This document shows, piece by piece, positions 48,213 to 64,000 of a DNA stretch of 64,000 bases. This DNA is from a virus. The stretch is from UHGV virus genome UHGV-0054069. One strand, 5' to 3'. Both the position numbers and the translations under genes were made by a program. Numbering within the stretch: the stretch's first letter is position 1; the number at the start of each line of letters is the position of its first letter. The notes beneath the pieces were generated by a model that made no database searches, was not told the DNA's origin, and saw nothing but the letters and a program-made list of their open reading frames with translations.

Positions 48213-48221
48213 GTAATTGAC

Positions 48222-57118: not shown

Positions 57119-57147
57119 TTGACAGGGGCTGAAAAGCCCCTTAAAAT
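57119..57147 (+). promoter_or_regulatory. sigma70-type promoter with perfect hairpin in spacer
   Basis: TTGACA-N17-TAAAAT; spacer is GGGGCTGAAAAGCCCC hairpin (same 16-mer also at 52266-52281). Confidence 0.45.
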
Positions 57148-57182
57148 ACGAAACTGTTAATTAACTAAAGAGAGATATTAAG

Positions 57183-58954: not shown

Positions 58955-59627
58955 TAAGGTTCTGTGTCATGCTTATGATATCAAACCTTTGGATTTAGAT
59001 ATCAGTTCTGCAAGTTGGTCAGAAACTGCTAAAGCTGACTTTGCAGATACAGCAAGATATGTTGTGTGTTGCTTTGAAGACTTTCACTCAACGATGACAA
59101 AGATTCCTTGTCAAGATTTGCTAACTGGTAAGACTGTGTATGTAAATCGTAATAGCCTCATCTTAGTTGCAAAAGACTTAGAAGCAAAACGTAAAATGGT
59201 TCTGGCAGATATTGACGGAGTTCTTACAAGCTTTGACAAAAGTCTTAATGCAACCTTGTTAGATGATGGTACTTACTCACAGTACACAAACTTGGTAGAC
59301 TCTCACAGGGCTAAACCAACTTATGTTTTTAACATCCTATGTGGAATCTCACAGAATGCTGATATAGGATTCTTGACTGCTCGTGGTGAATCACAAAGAG
59401 TGGTTACACATCTCTTCCTGAATGAGAACACAGACAGTGACTTCTTACTATTTATGCGTGGATTCGGTGACAATGAGATTAGTGCAGAAAGTTTGAAAGT
59501 TCGTATGCTTCAGTCTTGCATTCTACCTTACTATGATGTAGTATGTTTTATAGAAGATACAGTAAAGAACGTGGCAAAGGTTGAAAGAATCCTCCCACAC
59601 ATTAAAACAATGTTAGTTAAAAACTGA
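58932..59627 (+). CDS. HAD-superfamily hydrolase-like protein
   Basis: HAD motif I LADIDGVLT; 231 aa. Confidence 0.45.
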   Translation: MSESKQFDKVLCHAYDIKPLDLDISSASWSETAKADFADTARYVVCCFEDFHSTMTKIPCQDLLTGKTVYVNRNSLILVAKDLEAKRKMVLADIDGVLTSFDKSLNATLLDDGTYSQYTNLVDSHRAKPTYVFNILCGISQNADIGFLTARGESQRVVTHLFLNENTDSDFLLFMRGFGDNEISAESLKVRMLQSCILPYYDVVCFIEDTVKNVAKVERILPHIKTMLVKN

Positions 59628-59638
59628 GAGAGAAAACC

Positions 59639-60103
59639 ATGCAAAATATTATCACAGTAGCTATCGATGCAACCGGAAACAAATCTGAAGTTGTTCGTAA
59701 TATCATCAAAGACAAATTTGAAGGTAAAATCTTCCGAGCAGTAAACGTTAAAGCTGACGGAGAGATTCGTGAGTATCGTGCTCTACTGAATGTTTCTAAA
59801 CACGTTAAAGGTGTTGGTTCTACAACTGCTCACAAAGAAAACCTGATGACTATCTATGATATGGGTATGGCTTCAGAACTTGGTTCAGCAGGGATTGTAA
59901 AACAGGGAGCACCATACCGTTCCTTCAATCTGGAAACTACTCTTATGCTTTCCTTCACAAGTGGTGAAAAGACTACCACTTATCTGTTTACTGATGCTGC
60001 AACGGTATCAGCTATCAAGGACAGCACCATTAAAGCTGGGGTTAACGCTGCTGCTAAAGCCTCAACAATGGCTGCAAATGTGCTTGCTAAAGTTCTAGGT
60101 TAA
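59639..60103 (+). CDS. hypothetical protein
   Basis: 154 aa ORF followed by terminator. Confidence 0.45.
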   Translation: MQNIITVAIDATGNKSEVVRNIIKDKFEGKIFRAVNVKADGEIREYRALLNVSKHVKGVGSTTAHKENLMTIYDMGMASELGSAGIVKQGAPYRSFNLETTLMLSFTSGEKTTTYLFTDAATVSAIKDSTIKAGVNAAAKASTMAANVLAKVLG

Positions 60104-60111
60104 GGTTAATA

Positions 60112-60137
60112 TAGAGGCTCCTTCGGGAGCCTTTTTC
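60112..60137 (+). terminator. rho-independent terminator
   Basis: GAGGCTCC-TTCG-GGAGCC followed by TTTTTC. Confidence 0.65.
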
Positions 60138-60155
60138 ATTTCTAGGAGAAGTTAA

Positions 60156-60503
60156 ATGACATTTAAAGAATTTTGTCAAGCTGCTTTTGTAATCATGTTT
60201 CTGTTAGGTGTTGGTGCTTGGGGAGGTTATACTTACAAGACCAGCCAAGTTAACGAGAAAGAGTTGACTAATCAGAGATTGGTTAGTGTTGCTAAGGATG
60301 CTTACCAAGAAGGTTTAGCAAACCTTAGCGCTAATTACAAAAACGATTTGAAAGATGTGCTTGCTAAAAACAAACACACAAAAGAGGTATTAACTTATGA
60401 AAAAACTAAGACAGAGTTTCTTAATATTTGTGCTACTGAGTCTTATGTCAGGGTGTTCAATGAACAAGGTGAACAGTACCTTCAAAAACTCCCAAGTAAG
60501 TGA
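60156..60503 (+). CDS. i-spanin candidate (Rz-like)
   Basis: N-terminal TM segment then coiled-coil periplasmic domain; 3' end overlaps lipoprotein gene in another frame. Confidence 0.45.
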   Translation: MTFKEFCQAAFVIMFLLGVGAWGGYTYKTSQVNEKELTNQRLVSVAKDAYQEGLANLSANYKNDLKDVLAKNKHTKEVLTYEKTKTEFLNICATESYVRVFNEQGEQYLQKLPSK

Positions 60504-60666
60504 GAGTGACAAGTACACTCAGGAAGAAACTAGGTACACTGTCAAAGGTACTAAGGGTGAAGACCTTGCTAGTGCTATGGAGTTTTATCGTGATGGATTC
60601 TATGAATGTGCTATCAAGGCAAACAATTTGATTGATATGATTTTGTTAGGGAATAAGCAGCAATGA
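60397..60666 (+). CDS. o-spanin candidate (Rz1-like outer-membrane lipoprotein)
   Basis: Signal peptide with lipobox-like LMSGC; gene starts inside 3' part of i-spanin candidate (overlapped architecture). Confidence 0.45.
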   Translation: MKKLRQSFLIFVLLSLMSGCSMNKVNSTFKNSQVSESDKYTQEETRYTVKGTKGEDLASAMEFYRDGFYECAIKANNLIDMILLGNKQQ

Positions 60667-60932
60667 CAGAGAAGAATGAAACGTTCTATGTAGAAGGTTA
60701 TCTACTACTCCCAAGACCAAGCAACACTTACATGAGAATTGACTTCTTACCAACAATCATGGATGATATCATGTGTCACCTATTCATACAGGGAATCACG
60801 GCACAGTTAAAACATGTTGGAAGAGAATGTAAGATTCGTGTTGACAACCATCCTGAAATCAAAGAGAATCACTATATCTGGTTCGGTGAAGATTCCAAAG
60901 AAATCTACGCAACGTTAAAAACGAGGGAATGA
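60663..60932 (+). CDS. hypothetical protein
   Basis: 89 aa ORF, overlapping start. Confidence 0.4.
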   Translation: MTEKNETFYVEGYLLLPRPSNTYMRIDFLPTIMDDIMCHLFIQGITAQLKHVGRECKIRVDNHPEIKENHYIWFGEDSKEIYATLKTRE

Positions 60933-61099
60933 TTGTGGACAAACAGAAGCTTCTTAACTTGATTGAAGAGTATGGTGATACCCGTTTTAATATTGGTATT
61001 GCACAGGTTAAAGATTCAATTGAAAACTCTACCTTATGGGAAGAAGCTTCAGAAGCAATCTTACAACAAATTAAAGAGGTAATCTCTAATGGAACTTAA
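60929..61099 (+). CDS. small hypothetical protein (56 aa)
   Basis: ATGA overlap with upstream stop, fills gap between ORFs; below track size cutoff. Confidence 0.3.
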   Translation: MIVDKQKLLNLIEEYGDTRFNIGIAQVKDSIENSTLWEEASEAILQQIKEVISNGT

Positions 61100-61415
61100 T
61101 GGTAAAACCATTGTAGCCGTATTCTCAGATAATGAGAAAGATATTGGTGTAGCCCAAGTGACATATGGCAATGGTGAGTTTCTATATGGTGTAATCGCCA
61201 TGATTGGTACAAGAGGTGATACCCCAACATTCCAAGATTGTGTACATAAGCTTGAAGAGTCTGTTAGAAATCATTGGTGTCTCGTTTGGATGAACGATAA
61301 TGATATCAAAGAGCGTTACGCTAAAATTGGTATTGACATTGTTGGAATTGAACATGTAGACTTGTATCAACTAACTGAAAAGGTGATGTATGAAAGTTCT
61401 AATCGTCAGAAATAA
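61089..61415 (+). CDS. hypothetical protein
   Basis: 108 aa ORF. Confidence 0.4.
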   Translation: MELNGKTIVAVFSDNEKDIGVAQVTYGNGEFLYGVIAMIGTRGDTPTFQDCVHKLEESVRNHWCLVWMNDNDIKERYAKIGIDIVGIEHVDLYQLTEKVMYESSNRQK

Positions 61416-61611
61416 AAAGACACGACAAATTATAGCATCTGGTATCTATGTAGGGAGAAGTGAAGTAATCCCGTTTACAGAGGTTTTCTCACATAAAGAA
61501 ACCTTCAAATATTATTTGGATGAATGCTTCTTACGTTCAAACGTTGAAAGTTTTAAACGGACTTTCACCAGTAATCGTACAGTCACTCAAGAGGTAATCT
61601 TAAATGGCTGA
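61390..61611 (+). CDS. hypothetical protein
   Basis: 73 aa ORF. Confidence 0.4.
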   Translation: MKVLIVRNKKTRQIIASGIYVGRSEVIPFTEVFSHKETFKYYLDECFLRSNVESFKRTFTSNRTVTQEVILNG

Positions 61612-61804
61612 TTTCTGCAAGAGTTGTTCTATTGAAATGTTTGGACGTGATACAGGAGACTTGAAAGGTCTTATCACTGAAGATGATTTCAAAGCTGGTT
61701 ATGCTATGCCAACACTCTGTGAAGGTTGTGGTGGAATCTGGGTAGACCATGAAGGGCAACGTGTAAAACCTTCTGAAGATAAAGAATCATGGGAGAAATG
61801 GTAA
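61604..61804 (+). CDS. zinc-ribbon protein
   Basis: CKSC ... CEGCGG Cys4 arrangement; 66 aa; stop abuts macrodomain gene start. Confidence 0.45.
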   Translation: MADFCKSCSIEMFGRDTGDLKGLITEDDFKAGYAMPTLCEGCGGIWVDHEGQRVKPSEDKESWEKW

Positions 61805-61805
61805 C

Positions 61806-62600
61806 ATGGGCATTGTAAAAATCATTAAAGGTGATATCTTTGAAGCCTTTGATAACCAGAAGTTTGATATCATTGGTCACGGATGCAACTGCATGAACTT
61901 GATGGGTGCAGGGATTGCAGCGACGATTGCAAAACGTTATCCAAAAGCTTATGAGACTGACGCTGAAGTTTATGAGACAGTTGGTGGTGAGAACCATAAA
62001 CCTGTACATCTTATGCTTGGCAATATCTCTGTAGCACGTTTCAAGCAGGGTCGAATTGCTAACCTATACACTCAGGTTATCACTGGTAAAGATGCACGTT
62101 ACAATGCCTTAGAAGCAGCTTTGCAGCGTCTTAATAACTACTGCAAAGTAAACCAGCTTAAGAAGGTTGGTCTTCCAATGATTTGTGCAGGGATTGGTGG
62201 TTTGGATATCTTTGCAGTTACTTCAATCATTAACCAGACAATGAAAGATGTAGACGTTTACCTTTATGTCTATGAAGAAACAATGCACAGACGACTAACC
62301 AATAACATAGTTGGTTGGAACAACTACAGTGAACCTCAACACTTTGATGGTGTCGCAGTTGTGAAGGATAATCAAGTTACACTACGGGTAAAACGGAAGG
62401 GTAAGGTGCATAAAAGTAACCCTCCGGTTGAGAAGTACTCTCTGAGTAACGCTCAAGTTACCCACCCGTTACACGACCACTGCTTGAGAGCAGTAACATT
62501 TGGGGACAATGCAAGTGTTTACCTTCTTGCACAAGACCATGAAGAAGCTGATAAGATTATCTCTGATAAACGTTTTAGCTTTGTTGAAGCACGTAACTAA
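61806..62600 (+). CDS. macrodomain protein (TARG1/DarG-like ADP-ribose hydrolase fold) with unknown C-terminal domain
   Basis: KGDIF, HGCNCMNLMGAGIA, catalytic-position Lys (RFKQG) and Asp in PMICAGIGGLD align with the TARG1 macrodomain pattern; 264 aa. Confidence 0.7.
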   Translation: MGIVKIIKGDIFEAFDNQKFDIIGHGCNCMNLMGAGIAATIAKRYPKAYETDAEVYETVGGENHKPVHLMLGNISVARFKQGRIANLYTQVITGKDARYNALEAALQRLNNYCKVNQLKKVGLPMICAGIGGLDIFAVTSIINQTMKDVDVYLYVYEETMHRRLTNNIVGWNNYSEPQHFDGVAVVKDNQVTLRVKRKGKVHKSNPPVEKYSLSNAQVTHPLHDHCLRAVTFGDNASVYLLAQDHEEADKIISDKRFSFVEARN

Positions 62601-62666
62601 GTAACTTTGTAAAGTATTCACAATAGAGTAAGCCTTTCTTGTTCTTGCAAACACAAGGTAAGGAGG

Positions 62667-62854
62667 GCTTTTTCATTTCAAAATCGTGCAGATAAAGGTC
62701 TATAAAGAAATCTGTAGAGTGAAATCAAAGTCAACTCCAAAGGGAAAATTCATTTTCAATTTGTGCAGGTGAACTCCAAAGAGCTTTTTCATTTCAAAAT
62801 TGTGCAGAGAAAAATCAGGTCGGGCAAGAAAATTCATTTTCAATTTGTGCAGGT
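62667..62854. repeat. array of four direct repeats of two alternating types in noncoding DNA
   Basis: Type A 26-mers at 62667-62692 and 62783-62808 (1 mismatch); type B identical 27-mers at 62744-62770 and 62828-62854; AACTCCAAAG at 62733 and 62772. Confidence 0.7.
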
Positions 62855-62870
62855 AGCCAGATATAGCCAG

Positions 62871-62906
62871 CCATCCCCACCACCCCCTCTTACTCCCCTT
62901 CCTCCC
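62871..62906 (+). repeat. G-free polypyrimidine (C-rich) tract
   Basis: 36 nt with no G on + strand, about two-thirds C, in an AT-rich genome. Confidence 0.6.
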
Positions 62907-63027
62907 AAAAGTCAAGAGAAAAATTTGTAGCGGATTAAAAAATAATTCTTGACTAGTTTTCTGTTTAGTGCTATGTGTACGCGCCCGTTTCATTCACAAC
63001 ATGCCAAAAATATTTTTAAAAATTTGC

Positions 63028-63056
63028 TTGACTCTAAAAAACCAGTCTTATAGTAT
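63028..63056 (+). promoter_or_regulatory. sigma70-type promoter
   Basis: TTGACT-N17-TAGTAT upstream of small-ORF cassette. Confidence 0.4.
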
Positions 63057-63080
63057 TTGCATCAACGGGAAGCAATCCCA

Positions 63081-63101
63081 ACAATCCTAAACTGGAGATT
63101 C
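63081..63101 (+). repeat. repeated 21-bp translation-initiation leader (second copy 63552-63572)
   Basis: ACAATCCTAAACTGGAGATTC identical at both sites, each just upstream of an ATG (63107, 63577). Confidence 0.6.
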
Positions 63102-63106
63102 AAAAA

Positions 63107-63313
63107 ATGTTATATCAACGGGAATTAATGATTGTCGATAATAACAAAACTAAAAAACGTCGCTTCTTTATGTTAATCTGTGACGTGTGGCAAAGAATAT
63201 CTGAAAAGGATTATGACAAGTATGTTGATACATCAATCAGGTCGGATTGTTATTTGACAAATCACACAAGACAGTTTACAAGACATACAGCAGTTTACTA
63301 CTATGACGTTTAA
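63107..63313 (+). CDS. hypothetical protein
   Basis: 68 aa ORF downstream of repeated leader. Confidence 0.4.
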   Translation: MLYQRELMIVDNNKTKKRRFFMLICDVWQRISEKDYDKYVDTSIRSDCYLTNHTRQFTRHTAVYYYDV

Positions 63314-63325
63314 AAGGGCTTGACA

Positions 63326-63487
63326 ATGATTAAAGAAGGCAATGTAATAAGCTACAAAGATTTAGACGGATACCCAAAAATTGGGAAAGTTTTCTACCTT
63401 TACAAGTCAGTGATGGATAATGACTGCATAGCCCTAACAAATGGCGACAAGATAACCATGAAAGATTTTATAAAAATTATTTCATAA
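63326..63487 (+). CDS. small hypothetical protein (53 aa)
   Basis: ATG at 63326 with upstream AAGGG; ends at repeated 3' element; below track size cutoff. Confidence 0.3.
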   Translation: MIKEGNVISYKDLDGYPKIGKVFYLYKSVMDNDCIALTNGDKITMKDFIKIIS

Positions 63488-63507
63488 AGTGCTTTACATG
63501 GGGTTTA
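63485..63507 (+). repeat. repeated 23-bp 3' element (second copy 63961-63983)
   Basis: TAAAGTGCTTTACATGGGGTTTA identical at both sites, each overlapping or abutting a stop codon. Confidence 0.6.
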
Positions 63508-63576
63508 AAAAGGTAGTATCTTAAGCCCCAGATAAAGAGCTTTACCACTAAACAATCCTAAACTGGAGATTCTAAA

Positions 63577-63960
63577 ATGAAAAAATATTATATGCCAAAA
63601 TTCATCAAGAAAGAAAACTTTCGTGATGCTCTGGAAAAATACATGAATGAGCAGTTCAAAGGTAAATTAATTGTTGTCCACGCATACAATTTTAAGTATG
63701 ATGTAAATGGAAACAAGACAAATCACTATACCGCTACGATGCTGGATGGTACACTCTCAGGTGAAAAAGCCATTATCAATGCACTGGCTGGACGTGGTAA
63801 AACGTTGATACGTTGTGATAAACGCCGATATCAGGGCAGTTCTTATGGTTATGAGGATGCAGTCTATCACCTTGATAACATGGGTTACAATGTCGAAAAA
63901 GCTGGCGTGTCTCAAATGATTGGTAGTGATGGATATGTGACAATTTTTAAAATTAACTAA
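63577..63960 (+). CDS. hypothetical protein
   Basis: 127 aa ORF flanked by repeated leader and repeated 3' element. Confidence 0.45.
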   Translation: MKKYYMPKFIKKENFRDALEKYMNEQFKGKLIVVHAYNFKYDVNGNKTNHYTATMLDGTLSGEKAIINALAGRGKTLIRCDKRRYQGSSYGYEDAVYHLDNMGYNVEKAGVSQMIGSDGYVTIFKIN

Positions 63961-64000
63961 TAAAGTGCTTTACATGGGGTTTATAGTTCAATAAGATAAG

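What the first reader, a model, noticed from the sequence alone, without database searches (positions are those of the whole stretch)
63028..64000. Repeat-flanked small-ORF cassettes suggesting modular shuffling
An identical 21-bp leader (63081-63101 and 63552-63572) precedes two unrelated ORF units, and an identical 23-bp element (63485-63507 and 63961-63983) follows each unit, at a spacing of about 471-476 bp. Conserved flanks around non-homologous ORFs are the signature of cassette exchange by recombination between regulatory repeats, as described for hyperplastic regions of T4-like phages. The ORFs inside are candidate host-takeover or anti-defense cargo.
Basis: seen in the sequence. Interest (0 to 1): 0.5.

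Follow-up and report, generated by a model that had tools for sequence, protein, structure and literature searches.

The report
Repeated promoter–hairpin–RBS modules between early genes
The two repeats are the two ends of one ~90-bp control module (host-type promoter inside a hairpin, then a fixed ribosome-binding leader) that sits before almost every small early gene in a block of a Felix O1-like phage; it closely parallels the 'PeSL' cassettes of T4-like phages, and both halves had already been noted separately in the literature.

Summary
Observation confirmed: both repeats are exact, at the stated coordinates and spacing, with 0 copies expected by chance. The anatomy was misparsed. The "3' element" and the "5' leader" are the two ends of a single intergenic module. 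Its parts, in order, are the upstream stop codon, a −35 TTTACA, a GGGG…CCCC stem enclosing a −10 TAnnnT, and a conserved leader with GGAG before the ATG.

The window is a Felix O1-like (Ounavirinae, Mooglevirus-like) phage, cut at the start of a ~6-kb early-gene block. In relatives this block carries about 10–20 such modules.

Across 51 distinct copies, a 21-bp imperfect hairpin around the promoter is supported by compensatory changes. Sense-strand-only U·G pairs indicate it forms in read-through RNA.

Relatives show single-ORF gain, loss, replacement and one tandem duplication. The unit of change is one ORF plus one module, and modules evolve in concert. However, an unbiased triplet scan found recombination breakpoints no more often in modules than chance (20/81 vs 20.7 expected). 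Modules are therefore not shown to be crossover hot spots.

Cargo function is unknown.

Both repeats were already published (Felix O1 2010; Mordin 2015), though not joined or read as PeSL-like. Verdict: an ordinary-to-moderately interesting new member of a known kind.

The parts
63005..63106 (+). Module 1 (type B): AT-rich stretch 63005-63027; -35 TTGACT 63028-63033; 17-nt spacer; -10 TAGTAT 63051-63056; predicted start about 63063; 5'-UTR hairpin GGGAAGCAATCCC 63067-63079; conserved leader 63080-63101 with Shine-Dalgarno GGAG 63094-63097; ATG at 63107
   Evidence: Promoter scan. Sequence reading. Leader repeat. The same class of module (TTGACA-17-TAAAGT, then a GGGG..CCCC hairpin, then the leader) recurs in relatives. 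The small hairpin appears in the RNA fold.
63107..63313 (+). 68-aa ORF (cassette gene, PHROG 5293, function unknown)
   Evidence: ORF list. PHROG hit 9.8e-39, no Pfam. tblastn finds it in 170 phage records. 100% identical to ESh21 and 99% to SFPB.
63309..63328 (+). Junction TTTAAAAGGGCTTGACAATG: a degenerate copy of the module's 5' part (compare TAAAGTGCTTTACATG at 63485-63501). Together the two copies form a partial direct repeat flanking the 53-aa ORF.
   Evidence: Alignment with the intact module and with Michonne, which lacks the 53-aa ORF and reads ...TTTAAAGTACTTTACATGGGG directly after the 68-aa ORF. The window stops being identical to ESh21 between 63313 and 63338.
63326..63487 (+). 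53-aa ORF (PHROG 14219, function unknown); has no module of its own; rare accessory gene
   Evidence: ORF list (the ATG at 63326 matches the 162-bp CDS annotated in relatives). PHROG hit. Present in only 37 phage records. Absent from Michonne and Felix O1.
63485..63576 (+). Module 2 (type A, PeSL-like). The stop codon TAA 63485-63487 lies inside TAAAGT. -35 TTTACA 63493-63498; 18-nt spacer (17 in most copies); -10 TATCTT 63517-63522; predicted start about 63529-63531; leader 63551-63572 with GGAG 63565-63568; ATG at 63577.
   Evidence: In 51 distinct copies CTT(T)ACA and the T, A and final T of the -10 box are invariant while the spacer varies. 100% identical to the SFPB module.
63485..63544 (+). 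Imperfect 21-bp hairpin enclosing the promoter. Lower stem TAAAGT.GCTTTA (63485-63496) pairs with TAAAG.AGCTTTA (63533-63544). A 2x2 internal loop follows. Upper stem T-GGGGTTTAA (63499-63508) pairs with TTAAGCCCC-A (63521-63530). The apical loop carries most of the -10 box.
   Evidence: RNA fold -25.6 kcal/mol, z -3.2. Pair counts on 51 copies: 96.4% paired vs 88.0% shuffled (0/500), slid controls <=56.5%, 7 pairs with two-sided changes; U.G dominant at two pairs, so only the + strand pairs fully.
63577..63960 (+). 127-aa ORF (PHROG 4495, function unknown), confined to Felix O1-like phages
63961..64000 (+). Module 3 (type A), cut by the window end: TAAAGT 63961-63966; -35 TTTACA 63969-63974; GGGG 63976-63979; -10 TAAGAT 63992-63997
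   Evidence: The 40 nt are identical to the SFPB module that precedes an 85-aa gene, and differ from the ESh21 module that precedes a 170-aa gene.

Best explanation
The finding is the first ~1 kb of an early-gene block of a Felix O1-like myovirus. In this block nearly every small gene is preceded by the same ~60-90-bp intergenic control module.

The 5' end holds the previous gene's stop codon, a host sigma-70 promoter (-35 TTTACA, 17-18 nt spacer, -10 TAnnnT), and the arms of an imperfect ~21-bp hairpin that encloses the promoter. The 3' end is a conserved ~25-nt leader carrying the Shine-Dalgarno GGAG, 8-9 nt before the ATG.

Inferred mechanism: host RNA polymerase starts at each module within the first minutes of infection, so each gene is an independent unit with the same strong translation start. 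RNA reading through from the gene upstream folds the hairpin. The hairpin then attenuates the read-through RNA, gives it a protected 3' end, or provides an RNase III-type cut site, insulating neighbouring units from one another.

Because every unit carries the same module, single ORFs can be added, lost, duplicated or swapped without disturbing their neighbours. Homology between modules is the likely, but unproven, route for these changes.

Shown: the repeats, the module architecture, structure-preserving covariation, cassette polymorphism, mosaicism, and concerted evolution of modules.
Inferred: promoter activity, the role of the hairpin, and the role of the modules in recombination.
For: Identity and scale:
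- The window is 95.7% identical to Shigella phage ESh21 (Ounavirinae, Mooglevirus).
- CTAAACTGGAG occurs 12 times in 6 kb of ESh21, always on the + strand just before an ATG, and only twice in the 64-kb window, both at its end.
- The type A module hits 288 phage records at 1544 places, nearly all Felix O1-like.

Promoter:
- Consensus matches at 63028-63056, 63493-63522 and 63969-63997.
- The -35 box and the T, A and final T of the -10 box are invariant in 51 distinct copies, while the spacer sequence varies.
- The -35 to -10 spacing stays at 17 nt even in the variant whose stem is 1 bp shorter (read).
- Felix O1 RT-PCR puts block genes ORF16, 20, 21 and 22 in the 5-min class (PMC3185647).

Hairpin:
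- Fold -25.6 kcal/mol, z -3.2.
- 96.4% of cells paired vs 88.0% in shuffles (0/500) and <=56.5% in slid controls.
- 7 of 21 pairs have two-sided changes, including GGGG/CCCC to GGTG/CACC in Erwinia phages and G-C to U-A in the lower stem.
- U.G wobbles are dominant at two pairs, so pairing is complete only on the sense strand.

Cassette behaviour:
- In six genomes every variable slot has leaders = extra genes + 1.
- One slot has five alternative contents. Another holds F30, F40, both or neither.
- Michonne has a 430-bp tandem duplication of one ORF plus module, 99.8% identical.
- The 53-aa ORF is flanked by a partial direct repeat of the module's 5' part.
- The window is a mosaic. It equals ESh21 up to 63337 and equals SFPB from about 63106 onward apart from three isolated differences at 63136, 63139 and 63312.
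- 24 of 56 modules are closest to a paralog in the same genome, not to their ortholog.

Architecture equals that published for PeSLs.
Against: - No transcript mapping exists for this phage group that I could find. Promoter and hairpin functions are inferred from sequence only.
- The hairpin has no U-tract and was not called terminator-like, so the terminator role shown for RB49 PeSLs cannot simply be transferred.
- The unbiased triplet scan gives breakpoints overlapping intergenic DNA in 20 of 81 cases against 20.7 expected (p 0.61), 68 of 283 against 71.5, and 4 of 15 against 4.2. With a +-30 nt tolerance there is only a weak trend: 40 vs 32.9, p 0.07. Homologous exchange therefore happens all over the block, and my four breakpoints at modules are anecdotal.
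- The Michonne duplication junction joins a module end to a module start (…AAAATG|CTTTACATGGGG). That is not the in-register product expected from module-to-module crossover.
- Small genes also vary in the upstream, module-free operon.
- Covariation counts come from related copies, so they are not independent events.
Confidence: 0.72

Rival explanations
1. Pure regulatory repeats. The modules are conserved only because each early gene needs the same strong promoter and translation start. They play no special part in recombination. Cassette gain and loss come from ordinary homologous exchange between co-infecting relatives plus occasional illegitimate events. They look module-bounded only because selection keeps intact genes and intact control regions.
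For: Breakpoints are not enriched in modules. The Michonne duplication junction is a microhomology-type join, not an in-register crossover. Gene order is collinear among close relatives. Small-gene variation also occurs in the module-free operon upstream.
Against: Empty sites carry exactly one intact, normal-length module in all five variable slots of six genomes. Modules evolve in concert within genomes (24/56 closest to a paralog; pairs 98.9% identical within SflM004 vs ~88% to orthologs), which requires exchange between modules. A partial module repeat flanks the 53-aa ORF. Degenerate modules with internal deletions occur beside variable genes, as reported for PeSLs.
Confidence: 0.25
2. The leader, and perhaps the inverted repeats, is a binding target for a regulator, not just a promoter and RBS. 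This would be a start-associated sequence (SAS/ESAS-like) through which a phage or host factor switches the whole early gene set on or off together. Candidates are a translational repressor, an endoribonuclease cutting at GGAG, or a DNA-binding repressor on the TAAAGNGCTTTA palindromes.
For: About 22 nt are conserved, far more than a Shine-Dalgarno sequence needs. They sit before unrelated genes and also behind promoters of different types. The Mordin authors made the SAS comparison (PMC4611695). TAAAG(T/A)GCTTTA is itself a near-palindrome and occurs on both sides of the promoter.
Against: The two palindromes co-vary with each other (G-C to U-A at pair 5-54, 9 copies), and U.G wobbles make pairing sense-strand specific. 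This favours an RNA stem over two independent double-stranded DNA sites. No candidate regulator was identified. This reading is compatible with the main explanation and is not exclusive of it.
Confidence: 0.2
3. The hairpin is a plain transcription terminator for the upstream gene that happens to overlap the next promoter. This is the composite terminator/promoter role demonstrated for RB49 PeSLs.
For: PeSL stem-loops of the same GGGG…CCCC kind terminated transcription in reporter assays (PMC2839356). The hairpin begins at the stop codon of the upstream gene. The window has a true terminator-plus-promoter overlap elsewhere, at 48217: a 16-bp stem followed by a U-tract.
Against: No U-run follows either the upper stem (AGAUAAAG) or the full stem (ACCACUAAAC). 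The terminator scan called none of the modules. By contrast, the block ends in a canonical hairpin plus U-tract after its last gene (last fold; annotated terminator in Michonne).
Confidence: 0.2
4. Recent tandem duplication of a gene unit, or a chance repeat.
For: The near-equal spacing (471 and 476 nt) could suggest a duplicated unit.
Against: The ORFs between the repeats share no similarity. 0 copies are expected by chance. The same modules flank many different genes in 288 genomes.
Confidence: 0.01

Closest known systems
PeSL (promoter-early stem-loop) cassettes of T4-type phages RB49/phi1, PST/T4, nt-1/KVP40 (Arbiol et al. 2010, PMC2839356; Comeau et al. 2014, PMC4122927)
   Same: Same order of parts: upstream stop codon, sigma-70 -35/-10 at ~17 nt, a GGGG…CCCC stem-loop between the boxes or over the -10, then Shine-Dalgarno and ATG. 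The -35 form TTTACA and -10 form TAnnAT match the PST/T4 consensus TTTACW…TAYWAT. Both are densely repeated between small genes of unknown function in a variable early region. Both are associated with single-ORF insertions, deletions and replacements. Degraded copies occur next to variable genes in both.
   Different: Unrelated phage lineage (Ounavirinae, ~87 kb) and unrelated sequence. Here the stem extends into a 21-bp imperfect hairpin that also pairs the -35 region with the first ~15 transcribed nucleotides, and it is backed by covariation. No U-tract follows it. There is a second module class whose hairpin lies downstream of the start site. The 3' leader is much more conserved (22+ nt). 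Promoter and terminator activity and mini-circles are not demonstrated here. My breakpoint scan found no excess of crossovers in the modules.
Start-associated sequences (SAS) and extended SAS of cluster K mycobacteriophages (Pope et al. 2011, PMC3203893). This comparison was already made for the 26-bp repeat of Citrobacter phage Mordin (PMC4611695).
   Same: A short asymmetric repeat containing the Shine-Dalgarno core, a few nt before the start codon, in one orientation, only before non-structural genes of differing families. About half of the copies have imperfect inverted repeats just upstream.
   Different: Different consensus (GGGATAGGAGCCC vs AACAATCCTAAACTGGAGA). ESAS arms do not support RNA pairing according to the authors, whereas these arms do. 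Here a clear sigma-70 promoter lies within the inverted repeat.
Direct repeats listed in the Felix O1 genome paper (Whichard et al. 2010, PMC3185647): a 57-bp CTTTACATGGGGCTTAAAAG…CCCCAGATAAAGAGCTTTACCACT and a 39-bp TTGACACTGG…CATCAAC
   Same: These are the same elements (my type A and type B modules) in the type species of the subfamily, at the same genome position.
   Different: They were reported only as direct repeats. They were not listed among the promoters, not linked to the leader or to a hairpin, and not compared across phages.
RNase III processing sites between the early genes of phage T7 (established knowledge; not tested here)
   Same: Intergenic hairpins of about two helical turns with an internal loop, in host-polymerase early transcripts. 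There, cutting separates the messages and leaves stabilising 3' hairpins.
   Different: No cleavage data here. T7 sites do not contain promoters. The resemblance is by shape only.
Intergenic repeats carrying promoters in halovirus HF2 (PMC8707807)
   Same: Repeated intergenic elements shown to be promoters before many genes of a virus.
   Different: Archaeal virus with a different promoter type. No hairpin or leader architecture is known to match. Seen only as a title and abstract in a search.

Membership tests
PeSL (promoter-early stem-loop regulatory cassette) | Intergenic sigma-70-like promoter: -35 and -10 boxes about 17 nt apart | tested here: met
   63028-63056 TTGACT-17-TAGTAT; 63493-63522 TTTACA-18-TATCTT; 63969-63997 TTTACA-17-TAAGAT. 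The -35 box and TAnnnT are invariant in 51 copies.
PeSL (promoter-early stem-loop regulatory cassette) | Stable stem-loop, often GGGG…CCCC, between the -35 and -10 boxes or overlapping the -10 | tested here: met
   GGGGTTTAA/TTAAGCCCC at 63500-63508/63521-63529 encloses the spacer and the -10 box. Covariation supports it.
PeSL (promoter-early stem-loop regulatory cassette) | Upstream gene's stop codon at the 5' end; Shine-Dalgarno and start codon of the next gene at the 3' end | tested here: met
   TAA 63485-63487 lies inside the module. GGAG 63565-63568 and ATG 63577. The same holds in relatives.
PeSL (promoter-early stem-loop regulatory cassette) | Many copies clustered among small, variable genes of unknown function | tested here: met
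   12 leaders in 6 kb of ESh21. 288 records, 1544 places. ORFs are in PHROGs of unknown function.
PeSL (promoter-early stem-loop regulatory cassette) | Insertions, deletions and replacements between close relatives lie at the elements | tested here: met
   Leaders = extra genes + 1 in all five variable slots of six genomes, with alternative contents in two slots.
PeSL (promoter-early stem-loop regulatory cassette) | Recombination takes place within the elements (chimeric elements, crossover points mapped inside them) | tested here: inconclusive
   Supporting: crossovers map to the leader or junction in the window/ESh21/SFPB trio, and modules evolve in concert. Against: the unbiased scan shows no enrichment, 20/81 vs 20.7 expected, and the Michonne junction is not in register.
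PeSL (promoter-early stem-loop regulatory cassette) | Promoter and terminator/attenuator activity shown in reporters; mini-circles detected by inverse PCR | not testable with these tools
   Needs wet-lab assays. The absence of a U-tract argues against a canonical terminator.
PeSL (promoter-early stem-loop regulatory cassette) | Described so far only in T4-like phages | tested here: not met
   The host genome is Ounavirinae/Mooglevirus-like. This concerns where the family has been described, not how it works.
SAS/ESAS (cluster K mycobacteriophages) | Asymmetric repeat with the SD core, 3-7 bp before the start codon, one orientation, before non-structural genes | tested here: met
   The leader ends 5 nt (63101 to ATG 63107) and 4 nt (63572 to ATG 63577) before the start. 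All copies are on the + strand. None occurs in the other 63 kb of the window.
SAS/ESAS (cluster K mycobacteriophages) | 13-bp consensus GGGATAGGAGCCC | tested here: not met
   The consensus here is AACAATCCTAAACTGGAGA. Only GGAG is shared.
SAS/ESAS (cluster K mycobacteriophages) | ESAS: 17-bp imperfect inverted repeats upstream whose variation does not support RNA pairing (taken to be protein sites) | tested here: not met
   Inverted repeats are present, but their variation does preserve pairing.
Intrinsic (Rho-independent) terminator | G+C-rich hairpin followed directly by a run of U | tested here: not met
   None of the three terminator-like sites in 59000-64000 lies in a module. The sequence after the stems is AGATAAAG / ACCACTAAAC.
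RNase III processing site (T7 early type) | About 20 bp of imperfect double-stranded RNA with an internal loop in an intergenic early transcript | tested here: met
   21 pairs, 2x2 and 1x1 internal loops, sense-strand specific.
RNase III processing site (T7 early type) | Cleavage by host RNase III | not testable with these tools
   Needs RNA end mapping in rnc+ and rnc- hosts. No Rfam family matches.

The most novel reading that the evidence does not exclude
Felix O1-like phages have independently evolved the same 'plug-and-play' gene cassette design as T4-like phages. A host promoter is buried inside a ~21-bp RNA hairpin that acts on read-through transcripts as an RNase III-type processing or insulating site, not as a terminator. 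It is coupled to a fixed translation leader. Under this reading each accessory early gene is a self-contained, exchangeable unit, and the module doubles as the homology that moves non-homologous genes in and out. If correct, PeSL-like modules would be a convergent, general solution for accessory-gene turnover in large lytic phages, and the hairpin-in-promoter arrangement would be a defined RNA-level insulator.
Probability: 0.3. Interest if true: 0.55.

Novelty: new member of a known kind. Interest (0 to 1): 0.35.

Why it matters
The module explains how the earliest genes of a widely used group of therapeutic and typing phages (Felix O1 and relatives) are probably switched on. The Felix O1 genome paper stated that the temporal control of transcription was unknown and did not list these promoters.

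It also supplies a ready-made, portable promoter plus leader unit for phage engineering.

It extends the PeSL idea beyond T4-like phages, which bears on how lytic phages turn over small accessory genes.

The negative result is useful too. Recombination in this block is pervasive and is not visibly focused on the repeats. This cautions against reading 'conserved flanks' as proof of repeat-mediated exchange.

Tried and rejected
1. Simple tandem duplication or chance repeat: rejected.

2. It is the -35 box plus hairpin arms of the next module, and no U-tract follows it.

3. MAFFT alignment of the raw hairpins (A1) put the two arms out of register for the GGGGTTAT/ATAGCCCC variant. I replaced it with register-anchored constructs in which the loop is trimmed to its first 5 and last 5 nt, and one extra loop G was removed from one ESh21 copy (A2).

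4. First breakpoint test using near-identical tracts: too strict, only one tract end qualified. The per-triplet alignment version timed out. I replaced it with one multiple alignment and triplet run analysis, which gave the negative enrichment result.

5. Rfam scan of 62500-64000: only chance-level snoRNA hits, E about 0.9.

7. Integron-like cassette array (single ORFs separated by imperfect inverted repeats): considered only. The modules contain promoters and RBSs, and no GTTRRRY/RYYYAAC cores are evident on reading them. I did not search the genome for an integrase, so this is set aside, not formally tested.

8. Literature searches for PeSL together with Felix O1, for transcript mapping in Felix O1-like phages, and for the motif strings found only the Felix O1 and Mordin papers. 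The library lacks most subscription journals, so prior description elsewhere cannot be excluded.
Full report
**1. The observation**

Both repeats are real and exact. AACAATCCTAAACTGGAGATTC lies at 63080-63101 and 63551-63572. AAAGTGCTTTACATGGGGTTTA lies at 63486-63507 and 63962-63983. Neither has another copy with up to 3 mismatches in the 64-kb window, and none is expected in shuffled sequence. The spacings are 471 and 476 nt.

Between the repeats lie a 68-aa ORF (63107-63313) followed closely by a 53-aa ORF (63326-63487), and then a 127-aa ORF (63577-63960). These proteins fall into separate families in an all-against-all BLASTP, so the pattern is not a tandem duplication.

**2. What genome this is, and the true extent of the pattern**

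The region is 95.7% identical to Shigella phage ESh21 and 93.8% to SFPB. It matches 254 phage records, essentially all Felix O1-like myoviruses of the Ounavirinae. ESh21 is classified in Mooglevirus.

The window is cut at 64000, just as a block of small + strand genes begins. In ESh21 that block runs for about 6 kb. It contains the core CTAAACTGGAG 12 times, always directly upstream of an ATG, and the second repeat 5 times. In the remaining 63 kb of the window the core does not occur on the + strand.

**3. Anatomy**

Type A (~87 nt) reads:
TAA-AGTGC-TTTACA-T-GGGGTTTAT-(loop)-ATAAGCCCC-AGATAAAGAGCTTTACC-AACAATC-CTAAACTGGAG-AATCTAAA-ATG

- TTTACA is a -35 box.
- A TAnnnT hexamer 17 nt downstream (18 nt in the window's copy) is the -10 box. 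It sits in the loop and 3' arm of the GGGG/CCCC stem.
- The promoter scan finds 63493-63522 and 63969-63997.
- In an alignment of 51 distinct copies from ten phages, CTT(T)ACA and the T, A and final T of the -10 box are invariant, while the spacer between them varies.

Type B (the window's first module, 63005-63106) has TTGACT-17-TAGTAT. A small 5'-UTR hairpin follows (GGGAAGCAATCCC, 63067-63079), then the same leader.

The leader places GGAG 8-9 nt before the ATG.

**4. The hairpin**

Folding 63482-63579 as RNA gives an imperfect hairpin of 21 pairs at -25.6 kcal/mol, z = -3.2.

- TAAAGT.GCTTTA upstream pairs with TAAAG.AGCTTTA downstream.
- A 2x2 internal loop follows.
- The stem T-GGGGTTTAA / TTAAGCCCC-A closes over the promoter spacer and the -10 box.

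On 51 distinct copies placed in true register (A2):

- 96.4% of cells form standard pairs, against 88.0% in shuffles (0 of 500 reach the observed value) and at most 56.5% when partners are slid.
- 70 cells carry changes on both sides, against 18.9 expected.
- Seven pairs show compensatory changes. These include GGGG/CCCC to GGTG/CACC in an Erwinia phage, U-A/A-U swaps, four Watson-Crick types at pair 24-35, and G-C to U-A in the lower stem.
- Two pairs are predominantly U·G (41/51 and 43/51). These would be C·A on the other strand, so the structure is specific to the sense strand. This favours an RNA made by read-through from the upstream gene over a double-stranded DNA palindrome.

The copies are related to one another, so these counts are not independent events.

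No U-run follows the hairpin, and the terminator scan did not call it. A canonical terminator does close the block after its last gene (last fold). The shape of the hairpin, about two helical turns with internal loops, resembles RNase III sites between T7 early genes. That is my inference from established knowledge and is untested. Rfam has no match.

**5. Expression timing**

The Felix O1 paper's RT-PCR table puts ORFs 13, 16, 20, 21 and 22 in the class maximal at 5 min, and ORFs 17, 19 and 23 at 25 min (PMC3185647). ORFs 16, 20, 21 and 22 are block genes. Early expression fits host sigma-70 promoters. I found no transcript-end mapping for this phage group.

**6. Cassette variation**

Among eight enterobacterial relatives the gene order is collinear, but single genes come and go.

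- In six Mooglevirus/Suspvirus genomes, every variable slot obeys "leaders = extra genes + 1" (0 genes/1 leader, 1/2, 2/3). The unit of change is therefore one ORF plus one intact module.
- One slot (between the ~77-aa and 113-aa genes) has five alternative contents. Another holds F30, F40, both or neither.
- Felix O1 itself has only about nine genes in the block.
- In the distant Erwinia phage Coenus the shared families are in a different order.
- Across all phage records, the backbone macro-domain gene is found in 265, the type A module in 288, the 127-aa ORF in 223, the 68-aa ORF in 170 and the 53-aa ORF in only 37. Short-protein tblastn may undercount.
- Michonne carries a 430-bp tandem duplication of one ORF plus module, 99.8% identical. 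Its junction (…GGAGAATCTAAAATG|CTTTACATGGGG…) joins a module end to a module start and is not an in-register crossover.
- The 53-aa ORF has no module of its own. It is flanked by TTTAAAAGGGCTTGACAATG (63309-63328) and TAAAGTGCTTTACATG (63485-63501). Michonne, which lacks the ORF, has a single intact copy at that point.

**7. Mosaicism, and the test of repeat-mediated recombination**

The window is itself a mosaic.

- It has no mismatch to ESh21 from at least 62900 to 63337, then about 8% divergence.
- It is 10-30% divergent from SFPB upstream. The last cluster of differences is at 63099-63105, the end of the leader. After that only three isolated differences remain (63136, 63139 and 63312), and from 63313 to 63990 there are none.
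- ESh21 and SFPB are nearly identical from the ATG of the 170-aa gene for about 2 kb. That tract is bounded by modules on both sides.

These four hand-picked breakpoints sit at modules or ORF junctions.

In addition, 24 of 56 type A modules are most similar to a paralog in the same genome and not to the orthologous module elsewhere. For example, two modules in SflM004 are 98.9% identical to each other but about 88% to their orthologs. This indicates exchange between modules.

However, the unbiased test does not single out the modules. It used triplets of seven genomes and located switches between long runs of informative sites.

| Minimum run | Breakpoints overlapping intergenic DNA | Expected | p |
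|---|---|---|---|
| >=12 sites | 20 of 81 | 20.7 | 0.61 |
| >=8 sites | 68 of 283 | 71.5 | 0.70 |
| >=20 sites | 4 of 15 | 4.2 | 0.64 |
| >=12 sites, +-30 nt tolerance | 40 of 81 | 32.9 | 0.07 |

Homologous exchange is therefore pervasive over the whole block. A special role for the modules is supported only for the gain and loss of non-homologous ORFs, and there only indirectly. The indirect evidence is intact single modules at empty sites, flanking partial repeats, concerted evolution, and degenerate modules beside variable genes.

**8. Cargo**

The three ORFs match PHROGs of unknown function and have no Pfam or PADLOC hits.

Being early, small, accessory genes is consistent with host-takeover or anti-defence roles, but nothing here tests that idea.

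**9. Comparison with what is known**

The differences are:
- the phage lineage;
- the extended covarying stem;
- the lack of a U-tract;
- a second module type;
- a much longer conserved leader;
- the absence of functional or mini-circle data;
- my negative enrichment result.

The leader was already reported in Citrobacter phage Mordin as a 26-bp repeat "reminiscent of start-associated sequences" before 8 genes (PMC4611695). The promoter/hairpin part and the type B part were listed in the Felix O1 paper as 57-bp and 39-bp direct repeats, without interpretation and not among its promoters (PMC3185647). I found no paper that joins them or links them to PeSLs, but the searchable library is incomplete.

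**10. Verdict**

- The element is a PeSL-like promoter-hairpin-leader module of Felix O1-like phages, a new member of a known kind whose pieces were already noted in print.
- Interest is modest (0.35). The covariation-backed hairpin around a promoter, and the apparent convergence with T4-like phages, are worth a transcript-mapping experiment. Repeated early promoters between small accessory genes are otherwise ordinary in large lytic phages.

Noticed in passing
window 62660-62860: Four copies of a ~27-33-nt repeat (…CTTTTTCATTTCAAAATYGTGCAGRT…; two copies at 62744-62770 and 62828-62854 are identical) lie in the ~500-bp non-coding gap between the macro-domain gene and the first module. The first copy overlaps the U-tract of the terminator-like hairpin after the macro-domain gene, which is homologous to Felix O1 terminator t13. 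The repeats are conserved in all relatives examined. Function unknown; possibly a regulator binding array.
   Followed up: partly
window 62866-62912: A C-rich, polypyrimidine tract (CCATCCCCACCACCCCCTCTTACTCCCCTTCCTCCC) in a ~39% G+C genome. It is shared with ESh21 and SUSP2, but SFPB-type phages have different sequence at this position.
   Followed up: no
window 57119-57160 (rIIA/rIIB gap); also 37766, 48217 and 30199 (- strand): Other promoter-plus-stem-loop composites outside the block. At 57119, TTGACA-GGGGCTGAAAAGCCCCT-TAAAAT has the hairpin exactly in the 17-nt spacer. At 48217, TTGACA-18-TAGGCT overlaps a 16-bp stem followed by a U-tract. The 'stem-loop inside a promoter' design is therefore general in this genome, not confined to the repeated block.
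   Followed up: partly
window 63107-63313: The 68-aa ORF has a 40%-identical tblastn match (E 3e-8) in the 349-kb Xanthomonas jumbo phage XaC1. This hints that the small gene is shared with an unrelated phage group.
   Followed up: no
window 61806-63340 compared with L001 and L002: The window genome is a recombinant relative to sequenced phages. Its backbone (rIIA to the macro-domain gene) is 97-100% identical to ESh21 and only 73-89% to SFPB. Its 53-aa and 127-aa genes are 100% identical to SFPB and 90-92% to ESh21.
   Followed up: yes
L004 (Citrobacter phage Michonne) 7009-7868: A tandem duplication of a 430-bp unit (85-aa gene plus module) at 99.8% identity. The junction joins the ATG after one module directly to CTTTACATGGGG of the next, leaving a complete leader with no gene behind it.
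   Followed up: yes
L001 18340-19900; L002 15180-17000; L007 15325-15894: After its terminator, the block is followed by 1-2 kb of non-coding DNA packed with short repeats (TTGTTAAG/TTGTTAGA-like, CTATA(A/T)AGAG-like). In phage HP1 an annotated terminal repeat_region lies at the record end of this non-coding stretch. It is probably the genome terminus, packaging region or origin region. It lies outside the window.
   Followed up: no
L008 (Shigella phage vB_SflM_004) 13700-13770 and L007 11814-11878: Degenerate modules with internal deletions, for example TAAAGTGCTTTACATGGGG|TAAACTGGAG and a type B module lacking its hairpin. They lie next to variable genes and resemble the 'degraded PeSLs' described in T4-like phages.
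   Followed up: partly
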